The notes under the pieces: model-generated
Seen by the model: only the letters and a program-made list of their open reading frames with translations
Database searches by the model: none
Told to the model about the DNA's origin: nothing
Part shown: piece by piece, positions 2,496-7,579 of the stretch
Layout: the number at the start of each line of letters is the position of its first letter
Numbering within the stretch: the stretch's first letter is position 1
NCBI GenBank assembly: GCA_016208085.1
Contig: JACQYT010000096.1
Coordinates: 1-14,372 of the forward strand
Reading direction: 5' to 3'
DNA length: 14,372 nt
Source of the DNA: Elusimicrobiota bacterium
GTDB taxonomy: Bacteria > Elusimicrobiota > Elusimicrobia > Elusimicrobiales > UBA9959
Program-made: the position numbers and the translations under genes

Positions 2496-2729
2496 GAGAT
2501 ATTATTGCTGATGCGCGGCTTTCCGGCTAGTGTCAAAAGGTCCTGAATCCATTAGGCCCTTTAGCCCCCGGCAACATATAGATACACTACTTGTAATGGA
2601 GCTTTCCATTTCCCGGCGGTAAAAGACCGAAGGGCCCAGAAGGGCCTATGCCCGCGCCGGGAAATTAAGCGTTTATAAGGCCTAGCCGCGCGTAGGACAA
2701 AAAACTTCGGGAAAATGGGCTATTCGCCT

Positions 2730-2759
2730 CTGACGAAAATCCCGCCCGCGCGCTATACT
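2730..2759 (+). promoter_or_regulatory. candidate sigma70-type promoter (cTGACGa, 17-18 bp spacer, TATACT) giving a leaderless transcript for the 2766 gene
   Basis: TATACT at 2754-2759 ends 6 nt before the ATG at 2766. A TGACG -35-like hexamer lies 17-18 bp upstream. No Shine-Dalgarno (SD) sequence precedes the ATG. The same -10/6 nt/ATG geometry is seen at the toxin gene (6088). Confidence 0.35.
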
Positions 2760-2765
2760 ATTTGC

Positions 2766-5045
2766 ATGACGATCCTTAAACAGCTATCCAAACTCAGTTT
2801 GGCCGCAGTTTCACTCTCGCTTTTCTCCGCCTCCGGAGCAAAAGCCGCCGAGCTCTCTTTCGATGGAATGGACCGCGGGGCCGGCCTGGCCGCCGCGATG
2901 CAGGAACTGAAAGACCGGGCCGCAACCGGGGACGACAGCCGCGCCCCCGTTCCGTCCACCACCACCCAATCCAACGAGCTGACCAACTTTTTTGACCATC
3001 TCAAGGACGGCGCGCTGGACAGCCTCTGCAAAAAGGCGGAGATAAAGCTCAATAAAGACTTCAAACTCGTTGAGGTCATAGGCATAGACGGCGGGCTCAA
3101 GCGACGTCTTAAAGCTTTTCCCGACAAGCGGCTGGCCCTGCTGGACGAGATCAATCTTAAGCTCAGTGTCTCTTTCGGGACCGAAGTGCTGCAAGTGCCC
3201 AATGTCGGCTCTTTGAACATAGGTATAAGCGGCGGCGTGGAAGGCAAGTCGGTCGTCGTCCGCCCGCTGGACAGCACCAGGTACTGCAAGGAACTGGACA
3301 CCCTGATAAAGCTCTACGAGGTAAAGACCGTCCTTCCCGTAACCGCCAAGCGCATAAATAAGATGGAAAAGGGCGAGATCTGGAAGCTGCCAGTGACGGT
3401 CCACTACAGCATCAGCGCCGGAATAGGCACCATGATCAGCGAAGTGGTCAATGTCTCTATCGGGGCCGGCTATACCAGAGCGAAAAAGCCTTCCGTCAGC
3501 CTGTATAAGATGGATGAGAATAATTTAAGGCTGCGCCTGAGGCTGGACTATGTGAAGGTGAAAAGCGTCGGCGTCTCGGCCAACACGGTCGAGGTCCCGG
3601 TCGGCGACATAGGCCTGATCAGCGGTGAGAACCTGATAGCCACCACGGTCAACCGGGAACTGGCCAAAGAAATAAATAAGATGATAGCCTTCAAGTTGGC
3701 CTACAGCCATGCAATGACCAGCGGCCAGAAGCTGCTGCTTGAGTTCTACCTTGACCCCAATAACGCCGAACAGGTGGACAGGCTGGCGGAGTTTCTGCAG
3801 GGCGATTTCAACACTATCCGCAAGTTCATCGCGATGGGGCTGAAGTTCAACACCTTCTCCGAAGAGGCCAGCGGCCAGGCCGGCGTGGGCGAGATAGAGG
3901 AACTGGCGGACCAGGCCGGTTCCGAGCTGAACGCGACCTCCACTTTCGCCGGTTCCGACCACTATAACGGGAACAGCAATAACTTTAATATCAACATACC
4001 GGTCATACATAATCACCAGAACAGCTGGGCCTCCAGCTATCACCGCTACCAATCGCTTAACAACGACGGCGCCACCATCCATGTCCGGCAGCGGACCCGC
4101 GTCTCCAACGGCGATACAATCAACATCCCTTTAATCGGGACGGTGGTCAAGTATAATTCGCAGCAGCATATCTATGCGGTCAACAAGGAAGCCGCCGGCG
4201 GCGAAGTCTCAAGGCCCGTGCTGCTTTACCAGAAGTACGAAGGCTTTCTGCGGCAGGGCGATTCGACGGCACGCGGGATGATAGACGACGCCAATAACGT
4301 GCTGAAATACGCCGGCAGGCAGGGCAACGGCGTTGACATGAGCAACACACTTCCCTCGGCGGCTATCTTCCCGCCGCTGCCGCCCCAGGAATACACCAAT
4401 CAGAACAACGACTACATGCAATCCGACCCTGTAAAGACCTATAAAGCGGCCGTAATGTCCTTTAAGCTGGTATTCGCCCAAACAGCGGTGCAGGACATCA
4501 TCTTCGCGCCGGCCCAACTGATAATGAAATCCTTTATGAACGTGATGCGCGAGACCGAAGCCGCGATCATAGACAAGGTCATGGACCTGTTCACGATAAA
4601 TGAAAAGGGTAAAGTGGATTATGATTATAAGGCCGTGATCAAGCGCCTGGACGTGAGTCCATTCCCCGACAATAACAATAACGGCCAACCGACCCCGCTG
4701 GACATAGTCAGAAACCTGGCCTACGCGGCGACAAAGTTCATTGAAAGGATAGTCAGCGTCAGGGACGAATCCGACTTGAAAGCTCAGTCGGAGCGGCTGG
4801 CCAAGGTGGCCTCAAGCGGCGAGATGAAATACGAGGATTTCCTGAAAGTGGTCATCCAGATGGTGGATGTGAAGGATATTTCTTCCGAGATTTACATCCA
4901 CACCGACAAGCGCGTCAAGGACGAAGAGGACGTGACCCAGACCTACAGCATGTTCAACAACCGCGACAACGGCTTTGACAGCACAATAGCCGACGTGACC
5001 CAGATGCGGGAGCGCTTCAATGACCCCGGCGATCTGACGGACTGA
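2766..5045 (+). CDS. large secreted protein (759 aa) of unknown function, with amphipathic beta-hairpin-like segments
   Basis: Track ORF 2715..5045. The Met at 2766 begins a classical signal peptide (MTILKQLSKLSLAAVSLSLFSASGAKA-AE). There are no further hydrophobic helices. Segments such as VTVHYSISAGIGTMISEVVNVSIGAGYT alternate small/polar and hydrophobic residues. Asn-rich stretches and codon usage are visibly more A/T-rich than the neighbouring genes. Confidence 0.75.
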   Translation: MTILKQLSKLSLAAVSLSLFSASGAKAAELSFDGMDRGAGLAAAMQELKDRAATGDDSRAPVPSTTTQSNELTNFFDHLKDGALDSLCKKAEIKLNKDFKLVEVIGIDGGLKRRLKAFPDKRLALLDEINLKLSVSFGTEVLQVPNVGSLNIGISGGVEGKSVVVRPLDSTRYCKELDTLIKLYEVKTVLPVTAKRINKMEKGEIWKLPVTVHYSISAGIGTMISEVVNVSIGAGYTRAKKPSVSLYKMDENNLRLRLRLDYVKVKSVGVSANTVEVPVGDIGLISGENLIATTVNRELAKEINKMIAFKLAYSHAMTSGQKLLLEFYLDPNNAEQVDRLAEFLQGDFNTIRKFIAMGLKFNTFSEEASGQAGVGEIEELADQAGSELNATSTFAGSDHYNGNSNNFNINIPVIHNHQNSWASSYHRYQSLNNDGATIHVRQRTRVSNGDTINIPLIGTVVKYNSQQHIYAVNKEAAGGEVSRPVLLYQKYEGFLRQGDSTARGMIDDANNVLKYAGRQGNGVDMSNTLPSAAIFPPLPPQEYTNQNNDYMQSDPVKTYKAAVMSFKLVFAQTAVQDIIFAPAQLIMKSFMNVMRETEAAIIDKVMDLFTINEKGKVDYDYKAVIKRLDVSPFPDNNNNGQPTPLDIVRNLAYAATKFIERIVSVRDESDLKAQSERLAKVASSGEMKYEDFLKVVIQMVDVKDISSEIYIHTDKRVKDEEDVTQTYSMFNNRDNGFDSTIADVTQMRERFNDPGDLTD

Positions 5046-5080
5046 GGCGGCCAAGGTTTAAGGAAACGTCACGAAGTGAG

Positions 5081-5118
5081 CGCCCTCCGGGGGACCGGAG
5101 GGCGTTTTATTTGTGTTT
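5081..5118 (+). terminator. rho-independent terminator of the 2766..5045 gene
   Basis: A perfect 10-bp stem cgccctccgg (5081-5090) / ccggagggcg (5095-5104) with loop ggga, followed by ttttatttgtgttt. Confidence 0.85.
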
Positions 5119-5196
5119 CAAGCCAAAATCAACGCGACGTTATGCTGTCTGGGTGGTCTGATAGGATATTTGTGTGGATAATAGGAGGGATAAAAT

Positions 5197-5298
5197 ATGA
5201 CAAAGGATAAAAATATCAAGTCTTTTATGCCCGCTGAAGTGATTGAAAACAAGGGGGGAAAGGTAGCAGGCACCTTTTCTTTATCCTCCGGGCCTTAG
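5197..5298 (+). CDS. small ORF, 33 aa (MTKDKNIKSFMPAEVIENKGGKVAGTFSLSSGP)
   Basis: A GGAGG Shine-Dalgarno at 5184-5188 lies 8 nt upstream of the ATG at 5197. The stop TAG at 5296-5298 lies inside the left terminal repeat of the 5293..5451 element. No homolog recognised, and coding status is uncertain. Confidence 0.3.
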   Translation: MTKDKNIKSFMPAEVIENKGGKVAGTFSLSSGP

Positions 5299-5451
5299 GA
5301 GCCTCCGCAGAATAACTTGGACATCTGGAGGCACAGCCTTGAGTCGGATGCAAGGCGCGACGACGATAGTGTAGCAGCGCTACATTGAGGAGGAGCAACG
5401 CAGCAGCCGGCCAAAGATGTGCCTTCAAGTTATTCTGCGGAGGCTCCTTAG
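5293..5451. mobile_element. MITE-like element of 158 bp with 23-26-bp terminal inverted repeats
   Basis: Left arm aggagcctccgcagaataacttg (5297-5319) is the perfect reverse complement of the right arm caagttattctgcggaggctcct (5426-5448). The outer 3 nt match 2 of 3 (ctt against cta). The ~106-bp core has no long ORF and contains the short hairpin tgtagc-agc-gctaca. A degenerate second copy lies at 13531..13582. Confidence 0.5.
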
Positions 5452-5736
5452 CTCTATTATTAGCTTGCTTTTGACTGCCTGGGAAATCTCCCATAGGGTA
5501 TGGAGAGTGAGATTTTGCCCGCCCCGCTCTATCCGGGAGATAGTCTGCTGTTTCGTCCCCAGTTTCCTTGCCAGTTGAACCTGAGACATATGAGCGCGCT
5601 CGCGCGCCAAGGCAATCTGAACAGCTAAACGCGCTTCAATGTCCGCCTCTTCAAAGGCTTTCCGAAAACCGGGATCTTTTAGATCCTTTCTCAATACCTC
5701 GTTTAACGGAATCCCGGCTTGAATTTTTTTCTTCAT
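5425..5736 (-). CDS. higA: XRE-family helix-turn-helix antitoxin (HigA-like)
   Basis: Contains a canonical HTH (MSQVQLARKLGTKQQTISRIERGGQNLTLHTL). It starts 4 nt after the toxin stop (TAA-cgat-ATG), in the usual toxin-then-antitoxin hig order. The last 9 codons (ELRSLRRIT) are encoded by the right terminal repeat of the MITE-like element. Confidence 0.8.
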   Translation of the reverse strand: MKKKIQAGIPLNEVLRKDLKDPGFRKAFEEADIEARLAVQIALARERAHMSQVQLARKLGTKQQTISRIERGGQNLTLHTLWEISQAVKSKLIIELRSLRRIT

Positions 5737-5740
5737 ATCG

Positions 5741-6088
5741 TTAGTCCCCCTTCCTTCTTAACCAGTTCGCGAATGTCCGCTTGGAACGTTCAATCTCGGA
5801 CTTCGGCGCCACCTGCGTCTTCTTCAAGAAAGCATTGGTTATCAAAATTGTTTTACCACAAATCACATAAAGAAACCGGTGTTGATGATGCTCTATCGCA
5901 GGGCGAAGCTCACGGACATTCCTTTCCAACACATCGGCATAAGGCCTTGGTAAATTCGGTCCGTACTCCTGTAATAATGTAAGCCATTTCTTTGCTTTCG
6001 CCTCATGTTTTCTATTTAGGCTTTTAAGATAGTCTAAAGGCTGGCTGCATCCGTTTTCGTCCTGGTAGAATACGACTGTATAATCCAT
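5741..6088 (-). CDS. higB: RelE/ParE-superfamily toxin of the Gp49/HigB type (phage-related-protein family)
   Basis: The protein MDYTVVFYQDENGCSQPLDYLKSL...RELRP...HRFLYVICGKTILITNAFLKKTQVAPKSEIERSKRTF matches the Gp49-like HigB toxin pattern. The track ORF starts 6 codons upstream (6106), but those codons contain the -10 box. The start was placed at 6088 so the mRNA is leaderless. Confidence 0.8.
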   Translation of the reverse strand: MDYTVVFYQDENGCSQPLDYLKSLNRKHEAKAKKWLTLLQEYGPNLPRPYADVLERNVRELRPAIEHHQHRFLYVICGKTILITNAFLKKTQVAPKSEIERSKRTFANWLRRKGD

Positions 6089-6094
6089 AATATT

Positions 6095-6123
6095 AGTATA
6101 CAGCATATACGCTGTTTTGTCAA
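6095..6123 (-). promoter_or_regulatory. near-consensus sigma70 promoter (TTGACA, 17 bp spacer, TATACT) for higBA with a leaderless start
   Basis: Read on the minus strand: TTGACA (6123-6118), a 17-nt spacer, then TATACT (6100-6095). The -10 ends 6 nt before the ATG at 6088, so transcription is predicted to start at or next to the start codon. Confidence 0.6.
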
Positions 6124-6514
6124 GGGGGAAAGCAGGCGCCTTTTCCGGGTGTCTTTTTCCGCAGTGGAACTTCGTGATTATAAGTTGGCTGCGACCTTGG
6201 GGGTGGGGATGGATTTATCATCTGGGTTGGAATAAATATACAAAAAATAGCTGACCAAAAGGCCAGCCGGGGGGCGGCGGGGGTTTGCTGGTGCACGCCT
6301 TTCCGGCTTTCGGCCAAACTGTTGGAGCGAACCGCTATCATTCGGCGGCGGCGAGGACCGTATGTTCAAGCCGTCCGCCTAAAGCGGACGGCACGTTCCA
6401 CAGCCGGCGGAAACGGCTTGGCCGCTTCCCCATAAAGCCGGTCCCGGCGTGCGAGCGGCAAAACCCCGCCGGCACCCCGACCAATTATACAATAAGCGTT
6501 AGTATTGGAAAAAA

Positions 6515-7579
6515 TCAGTGTTTTATCTTTGAGTCCACGCCGAAGATGTGGGAGATCAGGGCGGCCCGGGCCCACATGCCGTTGCGCTCCTGGCGCCAGA
6601 AAACGGCGCGCGGGTCTTCGTCCACCGAAACCTCTATCTCGTGGCGCCGCGGGAGCGGGTGCATGATAACGCAGGTCTTCTTAATGACCTTTAGATGTTC
6701 ATGTTTGAAATAAAAAGGGGAATAATCCACTTTTTTTGACTCGCCGGACTTGTCGTGCTCGTCCTGGATGCGGGTCATGTAAATAGCGTCCGCGCCGTCC
6801 ATCACCGATGAAAAATCCCCGGTCTCGGTATACGGCATCTTGTGCCGCTTTAAAAACTCCAGGATGTCCTGTTCCATCCGGAACTGCTCCGGGGACACGA
6901 AGGCCAGCTTTATGTTCTTATAGTTTTTCATCAGGTAAGTGAGCGAACGTACGGTTCTGCCGCGCTTTAAATCTCCGACCATCACTATCGTTTTATTGTC
7001 CATCTCGCCGTTAAAACTCCTGTAAAGCGTGTAGGTGTCAAGCAACGCCTGGGTCGGGTGCTGGTCCTTGCCCGAGCCGCCGTTTATGATCGGCACCGGC
7101 CTGTTGGTGCGGTTCATCAACCAGGCCGTTTTCTCCACGAAACCGGGCGCCGGATGCCGCATGATTATTAGGTCGACGTAGCTTGAGAACGTGCGCACGG
7201 TGTCCTCGGGGCTTTCGCCCTTCACTTCGGAGGAAGTGGAGGTGTCGCGTATCTCGGAGATCTTTATCCCCAGGATATGACAGGCGTTCAGAAAAGAAAG
7301 GAAAGTTCTGGTGGACGGCTGGACGAAATAAAGCATCGCCCGCCTGTCGGACAAAAGGTTGGAGACGAAGTCCATGCCTTCTTTATGCTGCGTCAGCGTC
7401 CTTAAAGCCTCGGCCGTCTTAAAAAGATTGGTCAGGATCTCGCGGTTGAACTGCTGGGCGAAAAGGCAGTCGTAAAGACGGCCCTCTTTGGCGAAAAAAG
7501 GCAACTTTTCCGAGATTTCTTTTGAGTAAAACTCGTCCCAATTGGCGTTTATGCTGGTCATCACCGGGGTTCTTTCCAT
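6515..7579 (-). CDS. aspartate/ornithine carbamoyltransferase-family protein of the ATCase type, divergent, with an N-terminal extension of about 45 aa
   Basis: Carries the signature motifs STRTF (canonical is STRTR), HPTQ, HPLP (ATCase-type; OTCases have HCLP) and YMTRIQDEH (canonical is TRxQxER). It is the last gene of the flotillin operon. The start at 7579 is preferred over 7561, with a weak AAGGCGG SD. Confidence 0.75.
   Translation of the reverse strand: MERTPVMTSINANWDEFYSKEISEKLPFFAKEGRLYDCLFAQQFNREILTNLFKTAEALRTLTQHKEGMDFVSNLLSDRRAMLYFVQPSTRTFLSFLNACHILGIKISEIRDTSTSSEVKGESPEDTVRTFSSYVDLIIMRHPAPGFVEKTAWLMNRTNRPVPIINGGSGKDQHPTQALLDTYTLYRSFNGEMDNKTIVMVGDLKRGRTVRSLTYLMKNYKNIKLAFVSPEQFRMEQDILEFLKRHKMPYTETGDFSSVMDGADAIYMTRIQDEHDKSGESKKVDYSPFYFKHEHLKVIKKTCVIMHPLPRRHEIEVSVDEDPRAVFWRQERNGMWARAALISHIFGVDSKIKH

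What the first reader, a model, noticed from the sequence alone, without database searches (positions are those of the whole stretch)
5120..6130. A/T-rich islet with a leaderless higB/higA toxin-antitoxin pair and a MITE-like insertion
By eye, the higBA genes and their flanks are markedly more A/T-rich than the surrounding genes, which are about 60% GC. That is consistent with horizontal acquisition between the terminator at 5081 and the 3' end of the flotillin operon. The toxin has a textbook TTGACA-17-TATACT promoter ending 6 nt before its ATG, so the mRNA is leaderless. The antitoxin start sits 4 nt after the toxin stop, which argues for translational coupling. This is a compact, probably functional TA addiction or defence module.
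Basis: partly seen in the sequence, partly recalled or inferred. Interest (0 to 1): 0.6.

Follow-up and report, generated by a model that had tools for sequence, protein, structure and literature searches.

The report
Plasmid-type toxin-antitoxin cassette hit by MITE
A small, intact toxin-antitoxin gene pair was acquired from a plasmid-like element by an Elusimicrobia chromosome, and a 150-bp miniature transposon later landed in the last codons of the antitoxin gene; this is a clean but ordinary example of known kinds of mobile DNA.

Summary
The 1,011-bp stretch has 46.7% GC against 55.7% for the contig, and it is essentially the lowest-GC stretch of that size. Third-codon-position GC (GC3) of the two genes is 0.50-0.52, against 0.64-0.85 for neighbours. 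On the minus strand, 5741-6088 encodes a Gp49/HigB-type RelE-fold toxin. It matches PF05973, gives a confident model closest to S. pneumoniae HigB, and keeps the catalytic R/R/F/K residues. 5425-5736 encodes an XRE-HTH antitoxin that starts 4 nt after the toxin stop.

The promoter TTGACA-17-TATACT ends 6 nt before the ATG. This geometry, and a 16-bp palindrome in the spacer, recur in homologues down to 51% identity, with compensatory changes in the palindrome. That supports a leaderless, autoregulated operon, but nothing has been measured.

The closest relatives (87.5% nt, from the -35 element to the stop codon) sit beside resolvase, ParA and a replication gene. Related Elusimicrobia carry other genes at this position.

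The hairpin at 5298-5447 is a true MITE. It has 22-26-nt terminal repeats and a TTA target duplication, and the plasmid-like copy preserves the empty site. An ISAzo13-family transposase gene ends next to the same terminal repeat. The insertion changed the antitoxin tail from PGG to SLRRIT.

This is a new member of known kinds and of modest interest.

The parts
5741..6088 (-). higB-type toxin gene, 115 aa, starting MDYTVVF; stop TAA at 5743-5741
   Evidence: PF05973 Gp49 scores 57.5 bits against a cutoff of 23.9. The PDB sequence match to S. pneumoniae HigB 6af3 has E 3.4e-11. The AF2 model has pLDDT 90.4, and the best Foldseek match is 6af4 at TM 0.84. NCBI's own call for this contig is the 115-aa form.
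5425..5736 (-). Antitoxin gene, 103 aa, XRE-type HTH. The last 6 codons and the stop (SLRRIT*) are encoded by the right arm of the MITE.
   Evidence: HTH_3 scores 51.2 bits against a cutoff of 23. The plasmid-like orthologue is 100 aa and ends ...IELRPGG*.
5745..5754 (-). Purine-rich Shine-Dalgarno-like run GGAAGGGGGA inside the 3' end of the toxin gene, 8 nt before the antitoxin ATG
   Evidence: Read directly from the sequence. The 4-nt gap CGAT is the same in L013.
6095..6123 (-). Promoter: -35 TTGACA (6123-6118), 17-nt spacer, -10 TATACT (6100-6095). The -10 element ends 6 nt before ATG 6088.
   Evidence: It matches 11 of 12 consensus positions and is the only such site in the contig. The geometry is conserved in L013/L014, L026 and L022, and in P0004 as inferred from its extended ORF.
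6100..6115 (-). 16-bp operator-like palindrome ACAGCGTATATGCTGT, filling the promoter spacer and touching the -10 element
   Evidence: Homologues keep the dyad through changes on both half-sites: ACAACGTATACGTTGT (L026), ACAACATATATGTTGT (L022) and ACACATATGTGT (L024).
5298..5447 (.). 150-bp MITE related to the ISAzo13 family; terminal inverted repeats GGAGCCTCCGCAGAATAACTTG
   Evidence: Repeat and fold data: (-92 kcal/mol, z -9.4). Larger copies of 323 and 353 bp with the same ends and core lie at unrelated loci L009 and L010. In L012 the same repeat follows an ISAzo13 DDE transposase gene by 6 nt.
5295..5297 (.). Left copy of the 3-bp target-site duplication TTA
   Evidence: L009 and L010 have TAA/TAA. 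The ISAzo13 family makes 3-bp duplications (PMC10045372).
5448..5450 (.). Right copy of the target-site duplication TTA
5281..5294 (-). Displaced ancestral end of the antitoxin gene (..GG CCC GGA GGA TAA, encoding PGG*), now separated from the gene by the MITE
   Evidence: Removing the MITE and one duplication copy gives GAGCTAAGGCCCGGAGGATAA, against GAGTTAAGGCCTGGAGGATAA in L013.
5117..6523 (.). Strain-specific segment between two conserved convergent genes: the 776-aa gene with its terminator, and the aspartate carbamoyltransferase-like gene
   Evidence: Homology to relatives L017/L018 stops at 6524 and resumes at 5116. Those relatives carry a 269-aa gene and a 66-aa gene there instead.
5249..5278 (-). 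Downstream copy of an imperfect direct repeat, GAAAAGGTGCCTGCTACCTTTCCCCCCTTG, starting 2 nt after the ancestral antitoxin stop
   Evidence: (family D5).
6121..6146 (-). Upstream copy of the same direct repeat, GAAAAGGCGCCTGCTTTCCCCCTTG, ending in the TTG of the -35 element
   Evidence: (family D5). It may be a scar of integration or duplication.
5078..5107 (+). Intrinsic terminator of the 776-aa gene; left edge of the variable segment
   Evidence: It is conserved in L017/L018.

Best explanation
This is a chromosomally integrated type II toxin-antitoxin cassette of plasmid type, in an Elusimicrobia MAG, later hit by a MITE.

Shown by sequence analysis:
- The cassette runs from its own -35 element to the antitoxin stop, about 0.7 kb without the MITE.
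- It encodes a HigB/Gp49-type RelE-fold toxin first, then an XRE-HTH antitoxin 4 nt later.
- The closest copies lie next to resolvase, ParA and replication genes.
- The chromosomal position is variable among relatives.
- Both genes evolve under purifying selection.
- A 150-bp MITE related to the ISAzo13 family inserted at a TTA four codons before the antitoxin stop. It duplicated the TTA and replaced the C-terminal PGG with the MITE-encoded SLRRIT.

Inferred mechanism:
- RNA polymerase starts at or within a nucleotide or two of the A of the toxin ATG, so the bicistronic mRNA is leaderless.
- The antitoxin is translated by coupling or re-initiation, helped by a GGAAGGGGGA run in the toxin's 3' end.
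- An antitoxin dimer, alone or with toxin, binds the 16-bp palindrome in the promoter spacer and represses the operon.
- When the antitoxin is depleted, the toxin cleaves mRNA on the ribosome through R62, R71, F87 and K89.
- On its plasmid-like relatives the cassette most likely acts as an addiction (post-segregational killing) module.
- In this chromosome it is most likely a selfish, still-functional remnant. The MITE is most likely a tolerated passenger that adds a long hairpin to the 3' end of the transcript.
For: Identity of the two proteins. The catalytic residues of S. pneumoniae HigB (R68, R73, F90, K92; PMC7984235) align to R62, R71, F87 and K89, and these are invariant among homologues.

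Organism and start codon: NCBI names the 115-aa protein on a 14,372-bp Elusimicrobia contig. The neighbouring carbamoyltransferase's best named relatives are all Elusimicrobia.

Plasmid-like origin: L013-L016 and the related ENA contigs carry resolvase, Gp49 toxin, a 100-aa HTH protein, ParA, a 103-aa protein and an RPA replication protein. DNA identity is 87.5% over window 6125..5446 and ends exactly at the stop codon.

Composition.

Variable locus in relatives.

Selection: dN/dS is 0.08 for the toxin and 0.19 for the antitoxin, compared with L013.

Leaderless geometry and operator covariation. The upstream in-frame ATG at 6106 lies inside the promoter spacer and is not conserved; it is absent in L026 and out of frame in L022.

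MITE:
- Terminal repeats.
- Identical 3-bp duplications in 3 of 3 complete copies.
- Empty site in L013.
- The terminal repeat sits next to a PF07592 transposase gene, E 9.4e-86.
- Two other ISAzo13-family ends in L027 and L028 are each followed by TAA and then unrelated flanks.
- The family makes 3-bp duplications.
Against: Nothing here is experimental. There is no mapped transcription start, no toxicity or rescue assay and no DNA-binding test.

Two more distant homologues break the leaderless pattern. L023 has 16 nt with a GGGGGA run between its -10 element and the ATG, and L024 has a -10-like hexamer directly abutting its ATG. The geometry is therefore not universal in the family. How well Elusimicrobia translate leaderless mRNA, and what their promoter consensus is, are unknown.

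The antitoxin fails the curated HigA model (16.1 bits against 47.7) and resembles S. pneumoniae HigA only weakly (E 0.088).

dN/dS is measured over the whole path between the chromosomal and plasmid-like copies. It does not prove selection after integration or after the MITE hit.

No second MITE copy could be shown in the same genome, because only this contig was available. The transposase-linked repeat in L012 is seen at one end only, because the contig is cut.

The host of the plasmid-like contigs is unknown.
Confidence: 0.8

Rival explanations
1. The cassette is a decaying remnant. The MITE hit, or loss of promoter activity in this host, has inactivated the module, and the intact reading frames only reflect how recent the events are.
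For: The antitoxin's native C-terminus was replaced. The stop codon now lies inside a hairpin arm of an element that folds at -82 kcal/mol on the mRNA strand. Chromosomal toxin-antitoxin copies often decay (general knowledge).
Against: Both reading frames are full length. All catalytic residues and the HTH domain are kept. The promoter and operator match those of the plasmid-like copy almost exactly. Only 3 terminal residues beyond the HTH domain were exchanged. An inactivated antitoxin paired with an active toxin would be lethal, so the allele's presence in assemblies from several sequencing runs argues that it is tolerated.
Confidence: 0.12
2. The pair serves mainly as an anti-phage abortive-infection system rather than as an addiction or selfish module.
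For: The toxin family is named after a phage protein (Gp49). Some type II toxin-antitoxin systems defend against phage (general knowledge). The locus is a variable hotspot.
Against: The defence-system models give only a partial 21-bit match for the toxin and generic HTH matches for the antitoxin. No other defence genes lie nearby in the contig. The nearest relatives sit in a plasmid maintenance block next to ParA and a replication gene, which is the classic place for an addiction module.
Confidence: 0.1
3. The mRNA is not leaderless. Transcription starts further upstream, for example by read-through from the carbamoyltransferase operon or from another promoter, and translation starts at ATG 6106 or uses a non-Shine-Dalgarno mechanism on a leader.
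For: An in-frame ATG exists at 6106, and gene callers used it in some assemblies, giving a 121-aa form. Two distant homologues do not fit the leaderless geometry. The promoter consensus used here is the E. coli sigma-70 one.
Against: ATG 6106 lies inside the promoter spacer and palindrome, has no Shine-Dalgarno sequence either, and is not conserved. A terminator at 6268-6249 and a second hairpin at 6146-6126 lie between the upstream operon and the cassette. The first beta strand of the fold starts at residue 4, as it does in S. pneumoniae HigB. The -35, -10 and start-codon spacing is kept at 51-88% protein identity.
Confidence: 0.25
4. The 150-bp hairpin is a structured RNA or terminator that belongs to the cassette, not a transposon.
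For: It folds very strongly on both strands. It sits between convergent transcription units, where a terminator would be expected.
Against: It is absent from the orthologous site in L013, where the TTAAGG target is uninterrupted. It is flanked by a 3-bp duplication, as are its two larger relatives at unrelated loci. Its ends equal the end of a transposase-bearing element. There is no T run after the hairpin on the antitoxin strand and no Rfam match.
Confidence: 0.02

Closest known systems
Streptococcus pneumoniae HigBA (PDB 6AF3/6AF4; PMC7984235)
   Same: The toxin comes first in the operon. The toxin is a Gp49/HigB-type RelE fold with an extra C-terminal helix (TM 0.84, 31% identity). The catalytic Arg, Arg, Phe and Lys are conserved. 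The antitoxin is about 100 aa, with an N-terminal extension followed by an HTH domain. There are palindromic operators in the promoter.
   Different: Toxin identity is only 31%. The antitoxins are barely similar in sequence (E 0.088). Here there is a single 16-bp palindrome inside the spacer of a promoter that abuts the start codon. Four palindromes were reported for the pneumococcal promoter.
Mycobacterium tuberculosis HigB1 (Rv1955; PDB 7NBU/7AWK) and the leaderless toxin-antitoxin transcripts of M. tuberculosis (PMC3898074, PMC8485053)
   Same: HigB1 is the second-best structural match (TM 0.73). In M. tuberculosis, toxin-antitoxin operons are predominantly transcribed as leaderless mRNAs, the arrangement inferred here.
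   Different: HigBA1 in M. tuberculosis is part of a three-gene system with a SecB-like chaperone, and no third gene is present here. The leaderless status here is inferred only from sequence, in a phylum where it has not been studied.
Plasmid addiction modules next to partition and replication genes (classical post-segregational killing loci)
   Same: The nearest relatives of this cassette (88% toxin identity) lie between a resolvase gene and ParA/replication genes on plasmid-like contigs.
   Different: The copy in the window is chromosomal, between housekeeping-type genes, with no plasmid functions on the contig.
ISAzo13 family insertion sequences (Pfam PF07592 transposase; related to eukaryotic Zator; 3-bp target duplications, PMC10045372)
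   Same: The terminal repeat is identical over 22 nt, and about 27 nt counting the adjacent bases, to the end of a PF07592-encoding element. The ends are GG...CC. The target duplication is 3 bp, TAA or TTA.
   Different: The element is 150 bp with no transposase gene. It is an internally deleted derivative of non-autonomous elements of 323-353 bp. I found only one paper in the searchable library mentioning both ISAzo13 and MITEs, and it was not read for that point.
Bacterial MITEs that alter neighbouring genes, such as the Correia elements of Neisseria (from general knowledge, not tested here)
   Same: It is short, has terminal repeats, forms a long hairpin in transcripts, and can change coding ends or expression signals of adjacent genes.
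   Different: The transposase family, terminal repeats and target are all unrelated.

Membership tests
Gp49/HigB-type RelE-fold toxins (Pfam PF05973) | Score above the Pfam gathering threshold | tested here: met
   57.5 bits against 23.9, E 1.4e-15, covering profile positions 1-88 of 90.
Gp49/HigB-type RelE-fold toxins (Pfam PF05973) | RelE/ParE-type fold with antiparallel sheet and C-terminal helix | tested here: met
   The AF2 model has pLDDT 90.4 and pTM 0.84. Foldseek matches are 6af4 at TM 0.84, 7nbu (HigB1) at TM 0.73, then RelE, YafQ and ParE structures.
Gp49/HigB-type RelE-fold toxins (Pfam PF05973) | Catalytic residues equivalent to S. pneumoniae HigB R68, R73, F90 and K92 | tested here: met
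   The alignment maps them to R62, R71, F87 and K89. These are invariant in alignment A3. The residue list comes from PMC7984235.
Gp49/HigB-type RelE-fold toxins (Pfam PF05973) | Ribosome-dependent mRNA cleavage and growth arrest | not testable with these tools
   This needs expression and cleavage assays.
hig-type operon | Toxin gene upstream of the antitoxin gene, tightly spaced | tested here: met
   The toxin is 6088-5741 and the antitoxin 5736-5425, a 4-nt gap. Homologues have gaps from -4 to +11 nt.
HigA antitoxin family (NCBIfam TIGR02607 antidote_HigA) | Score above the curated cutoff | tested here: not met
   16.1 bits against a cutoff of 47.7. The protein is a generic XRE/HTH_3 protein (51.2 bits against 23) whose best PDB sequence matches are HipB HTH domains. 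It is 'HigA' by operon position only.
Autoregulated type II toxin-antitoxin operon | Antitoxin-binding palindromic operator in the promoter | tested here: inconclusive
   A 16-bp palindrome sits at 6100-6115 and is kept through two-sided changes in homologues. Binding was not tested.
Leaderless mRNA | Primary 5' end at the start codon | not testable with these tools
   This needs 5'-RACE or dRNA-seq.
Leaderless mRNA | The -10 element ends 5-8 nt before the start codon, with no Shine-Dalgarno sequence between them | tested here: met
   TATACT, then AATATT, then ATG. The spacing is 6 or 7 nt in L013/L014, L026, L022 and P0004, but not in L023 or L024.
MITE derived from an ISAzo13-family insertion sequence | Terminal inverted repeats, small size and no transposase gene | tested here: met
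   The element is 150 bp. The terminal repeats are 22 nt identical, 26 nt with one mismatch.
MITE derived from an ISAzo13-family insertion sequence | 3-bp target-site duplication | tested here: met
   TTA/TTA in the window and TAA/TAA in both L009 and L010. The family's property is stated in PMC10045372. Two other ISAzo13-family ends are flanked by TAA.
MITE derived from an ISAzo13-family insertion sequence | Empty site in an orthologous sequence | tested here: met
   L013 reads GAGTTAAGGCCTGGAGGATAA. The window with the element and one duplication copy removed reads GAGCTAAGGCCCGGAGGATAA.
MITE derived from an ISAzo13-family insertion sequence | Terminal repeat shared with a transposase-encoding element of the family | tested here: met
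   In L012 a PF07592 transposase gene (E 9.4e-86) stops 6 nt before CAAGTTATTCTGCGGAGGCTCC. Only one end is visible because the contig is cut.
MITE derived from an ISAzo13-family insertion sequence | Several copies in the same genome | not tested
   Only this contig of the MAG was available. Copies were found at three to four unrelated metagenomic loci.
Integron gene cassette (attC-flanked), as for Vibrio higBA | attC site with RYYYAAC and GTTRRRY cores at the cassette boundary | tested here: not met
   By eye, neither the MITE arms (GAATAAC / GTTATTC) nor the flanking direct repeat (...CCTTG|TTTTC) fits the core consensus. No integrase is on the contig.

The most novel reading that the evidence does not exclude
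The ISAzo13-related MITE family may be more than a passenger: it could be a portable expression module. Read outward, its terminal repeat is ...GCGGAGGCTCC. In the three other loci found, a host start codon lies 7-9 nt after that GGAGG: a CinA-like gene in L009, a Ham1/RdgB gene in L010 and a membrane-protein gene in L005/L011. In those places the element appears to supply the ribosome-binding site.

In this window the same element recodes the antitoxin's C-terminal tail and caps the toxin-antitoxin transcript with a hairpin of about -80 to -90 kcal/mol. That could change antitoxin stability or the toxin-to-antitoxin ratio, and so retune the module.

A second possibility is that the promoter-to-terminator unit at 6240-6511 (z -5.9, no Rfam match) is an undescribed small RNA gene carried in the same variable segment.
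Probability: 0.12. Interest if true: 0.55.

Novelty: new member of a known kind. Interest (0 to 1): 0.28.

Why it matters
The value is mainly as a clean, fully reconstructible case. The sequence preserves a plasmid-type addiction cassette that moved with its own promoter and operator into a chromosome of a poorly studied phylum. It also preserves a later MITE insertion whose exact target, duplication and effect on the protein (PGG to SLRRIT) can all be read off.

It gives comparative, non-experimental evidence that a leaderless, operator-in-spacer promoter is an ancestral feature of this HigB subfamily.

It documents a non-autonomous element family tied to ISAzo13, an insertion-sequence family with few described derivatives.

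None of this would surprise a specialist in toxin-antitoxin systems or transposons.

Tried and rejected
- **Rfam.** The whole window at E<=1 gave nothing. L009 and L010 gave nothing at the MITE. The 6225-6530 stretch at E<=10 gave only chance-level hits.
- **tRNA and tmRNA.** The scan found none.
- **Terminal-repeat searches.** Exact search of GTDB representative genomes gave one hit, a single end in another Elusimicrobia MAG. Viral contigs gave none for the repeat or the core. The JGI metagenome scan gave four loci.
- **Plasmid collection.** A DNA search with the whole variable segment found no match. A protein search found only relatives at 37% identity or less, annotated as RelE/ParE toxins.
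- **attC / integron reading.** Rejected, because the core motifs are absent.
- **Remnant genes in the variable segment.** I tested whether the segment holds remnants of the 269-aa, 66-aa or 252-aa genes that relatives carry there. tblastn gave nothing better than E 0.39.
- **The 33-aa ORF at 5197-5298.** It has a strong AGGAGG upstream. It was too short for one search tool, and its only match among 1.84 billion representatives was itself. It also spans the junction between cassette and flank. I treat it as probably not a conserved gene.
- **Full-length parent insertion sequence.** A search of viral contigs returned only contig-end fragments of a different ISAzo13-family element. These were still useful for the TAA flank.
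- **Assembly breaks.** Logan assemblies of the same strain break inside the MITE. I could not tell whether that reflects multiple copies or poor assembly through the hairpin.
Full report
**What the window is.** The toxin protein is on record at NCBI as a 115-aa 'RelE/ParE family toxin [Elusimicrobia bacterium]' on a contig of exactly 14,372 bp. The window is therefore a complete MAG contig. The neighbouring aspartate/ornithine carbamoyltransferase-like protein has dozens of relatives at 70-90% identity, and all the named ones are Elusimicrobia. The contig carries ordinary chromosomal genes: Band_7/flotillin, DUF2157, GDYXXLXY, the carbamoyltransferase and a 776-aa protein with no family.

**Check of the observation.**
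- *Composition.* The stretch 5120-6130 has 46.7% GC against 55.7% for the contig. Only 0.19% of windows of the same size are as low, and the minimum starts at 5105.
- *Codon usage.* The codon-level signal is clearer. GC3 is 0.50 for the toxin gene and 0.52 for the antitoxin gene, against 0.64-0.85 for nine other genes.
- *Genes.* Both genes are on the minus strand. 5741-6088 matches Gp49 PF05973 (E 1.4e-15) and 5425-5736 matches HTH_3 (E 1.3e-13).
- *Promoter.* TTGACA-17-TATACT (6123-6095) matches the consensus at 11 of 12 positions and is the only such site in the contig. My own scan counted 0.09 such sites per shuffle. It ends 6 nt before ATG 6088.
- *Gene junction.* The antitoxin ATG lies 4 nt after the toxin stop. 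It is preceded by GGAAGGGGGA inside the toxin's 3' end.
- *Hairpin.* The inverted repeat that suggested a MITE is real.

**The toxin.**
- *Sequence.* The best solved relative by sequence is S. pneumoniae HigB (6af3, E 3.4e-11).
- *Structure.* An AlphaFold model built from eight homologues has pLDDT 90.4. It superposes best on that HigB (TM 0.84), then on M. tuberculosis HigB1 (TM 0.73), then on RelE, YafQ and ParE structures.
- *Catalytic residues.* Mutagenesis of pneumococcal HigB identified R68, R73, F90 and K92 as its key residues (PMC7984235). In the alignment these correspond to R62, R71, F87 and K89 here, and all four are invariant in the homologue alignment.

**The antitoxin.** It is an XRE-type HTH protein with an N-terminal extension of about 35 residues. 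It fails the curated HigA model (16.1 bits against 47.7) and matches pneumococcal HigA only weakly (E 0.088). It is 'HigA' by operon position, not by family membership.

**Where the cassette came from.**
- *Closest copies.* The closest toxins for which DNA was available (88% identity) lie on contigs L013-L016 and related ENA contigs. Their gene order is resolvase, Gp49 toxin, a 100-aa HTH antitoxin, ParA, a 103-aa protein and a replication-protein-A-like gene. That is a plasmid-like maintenance block.
- *Extent of homology.* DNA identity to the window is 87.5% over 6125..5446, starting at the -35 element. Once the MITE is removed, it continues to the antitoxin stop codon and ends there.
- *The chromosomal site.* In relatives whose carbamoyltransferase is 86% identical (L017, L018), the same two convergent neighbours are present. 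Homology to the window stops at 6524 and resumes at 5116. The space between holds a 269-aa gene and a 66-aa gene that leave no trace in the window.
- *Inference.* The segment 5117-6523 is therefore strain-specific. Together with the composition, this supports horizontal acquisition of a self-contained promoter-toxin-antitoxin unit.
- *Selection.* Between the chromosomal and plasmid-like copies, dN/dS is 0.08 for the toxin and 0.19 for the antitoxin. This is consistent with maintained function, although it does not isolate the period after integration.
- *Possible scar.* An imperfect direct repeat of 26-30 nt brackets the cassette at 5278..5249 and 6146..6121. It may be a scar of integration or duplication. 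I did not resolve this.

**Leaderless promoter and operator.**
- *Aligned upstream regions*:
  - window: TTGACA-17-TATACT-6-ATG
  - L013/L014: TTGACA-17-TATAAT-6-ATG
  - L026 (55% protein identity): TTGACA-17-TACACT-6-ATG
  - L022 (51%): TTGACA-17-TATAAA-7-GTG
- *A further case.* The spurious N-terminal extension of P0004 (83%) back-translates to the same arrangement.
- *Start codon.* No Shine-Dalgarno sequence lies between the -10 element and the start. The upstream in-frame ATG at 6106 lies inside the spacer and is not conserved.
- *Operator.* The spacer holds a 16-bp palindrome, ACAGCGTATATGCTGT. In L026 it becomes ACAACGTATACGTTGT and in L022 ACAACATATATGTTGT. The changes fall on both half-sites and keep the dyad, as expected for a site bound by a dimeric HTH repressor.
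- *Exceptions.* L023 has a 16-nt gap with a GGGGGA run. L024 has a -10-like hexamer touching its ATG.
- *Conclusion.* The leaderless, autoregulated arrangement is the best-supported reading for this clade, but it is still inferred. Leaderless toxin-antitoxin operons are already well known in M. tuberculosis (PMC3898074, PMC8485053).

**The MITE.**
- *Definition.* The element is 5298-5447 (150 bp), with identical 22-nt termini GGAGCCTCCGCAGAATAACTTG. It is flanked by TTA at 5295-5297 and at 5448-5450.
- *Folding.* It folds at -92 kcal/mol (z -9.4) on the plus strand and -82 kcal/mol on the mRNA strand.
- *Other copies.* A scan of JGI metagenomes found elements of 323 bp (L009) and 353 bp (L010) with the same ends and a shared core. 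Each is flanked by TAA/TAA at unrelated loci. The window's copy is an internally deleted derivative of these. One end also occurs in another Elusimicrobia MAG.
- *Link to a transposase.* In L012 the same terminal sequence follows, after 6 nt, the stop codon of a DDE transposase fragment that matches PF07592 (ISAzo13) at E 9.4e-86.
- *Family properties.* The ISAzo13 family is reported to make 3-bp target duplications (PMC10045372). Two ends of a different ISAzo13-family element are each followed by TAA and then unrelated flanks.
- *Empty site.* The plasmid-like orthologue L013 reads ...GAG TTA AGG CCT GGA GGA TAA. The window with the MITE and one duplication copy removed reads ...GAG CTA AGG CCC GGA GGA TAA.
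- *Effect.* The insertion moved the last three codons and the stop to the far side of the element. The antitoxin now ends SLRRIT* instead of PGG*, and is 103 aa instead of 100. These residues lie beyond the HTH domain, so the change is probably tolerated. The same allele appears in assemblies from several sequencing runs.

**What it is, and how likely.** A plasmid-type HigB/XRE type II toxin-antitoxin cassette was integrated in a variable chromosomal spot and then hit by a MITE related to the ISAzo13 family. My confidence is about 0.8 for identity and history, and about 0.65 for the leaderless start. The alternatives (a decaying remnant, a defence role, a conventional leader, or a hairpin that is not a transposon) are set out with their tests. 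The last is refuted.

**Novelty.** Each component is a new member of a known kind. Overall interest is modest. The most novel readings left open are that the MITE's terminal repeat supplies ribosome-binding sites to host genes and retunes this module, and that the adjacent promoter-to-terminator unit is an undescribed small RNA.

Noticed in passing
L009:9690-9711; L010:1426-1448; L005:6150-6182 (same as L011:7955-7987); window 5426-5447: Read outward, the MITE's terminal repeat is ...TTCTGCGGAGGCTCC. In three other loci a host start codon lies 7-9 nt after that GGAGG. These are the ATG of a CinA-like MoCF_biosynth gene (L009), the TTG of a Ham1/RdgB gene whose Pfam match starts at residue 4 (L010), and the GTG of a 246-aa membrane protein (L005/L011). 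The element may donate a Shine-Dalgarno sequence. With only three cases, no statistics were done.
   Followed up: partly
window 6240-6511 (minus strand): Just after the carbamoyltransferase stop there is a promoter-like TTTCCA-16-TATAAT (6511-6484, 10 of 12). It is followed by a 62% GC stretch whose ends pair (inverted repeat 6269-6288 / 6458-6477), and then an intrinsic terminator (6268-6249) with a T run. The stretch folds at -138.7 kcal/mol, z -5.9. There is no Rfam match even at E<=10, and no tRNA or tmRNA. It is absent from relatives. It could be a small RNA gene of about 230 nt or a GC-rich repeat. Only same-strain copies were available, so covariation could not be tested.
   Followed up: partly
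window 5249-5278 and 6121-6146: An imperfect direct repeat of 26-30 nt (minus strand: GAAAAGG-Y-GCCTGCT-(ACC)-TTTCCCCC(C)TTG) brackets the toxin-antitoxin cassette. One copy starts 2 nt after the ancestral antitoxin stop. The other ends in the TTG of the -35 element. Each contains a small hairpin. It may be a scar of integration or duplication, or a duplicated terminator.
   Followed up: partly
window 5197-5298 (plus strand): A 33-aa ORF (MTKDKNIKSFMPAEVIENKGGKVAGTFSLSSGP) has AGGAGG 8 nt upstream and was called as a gene in another assembly of the same strain. It converges on the antitoxin gene, and its stop codon uses the MITE's first base. Its only match among 1.84 billion representative proteins is itself, and it matches no Pfam or NCBIfam family.
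   Followed up: yes
window 2715-5045 (plus strand): This large 776-aa protein has a signal-peptide-like N-terminus and no Pfam, NCBIfam or PADLOC match. It is conserved, at 761-781 aa, at the same position in related Elusimicrobia contigs.
   Followed up: no
L001:1176-1224, L003:6312-6342, L008:3592-3662: All Logan assemblies of this strain break inside the MITE, 30-48 nt past the antitoxin stop from one side and about 70 nt in from the other. This fits either a multi-copy repeat or poor assembly through the hairpin. I could not tell which.
   Followed up: no
L013:480-760: Upstream of the plasmid-like copy of the cassette there are three copies of a repeat of about 40 nt (CCTTAGCGTACGATTTTTTCCGTTTTCTGAGGCGRCCCC), between the resolvase gene and the toxin promoter. 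They could be a res site or iterons.
   Followed up: no
L009:855-925 (minus strand): There is a confident 2dG-II purine riboswitch match (75.3 bits against a gathering score of 60) on the metagenomic contig that carries the 323-bp MITE. It is unrelated to the finding.
   Followed up: no
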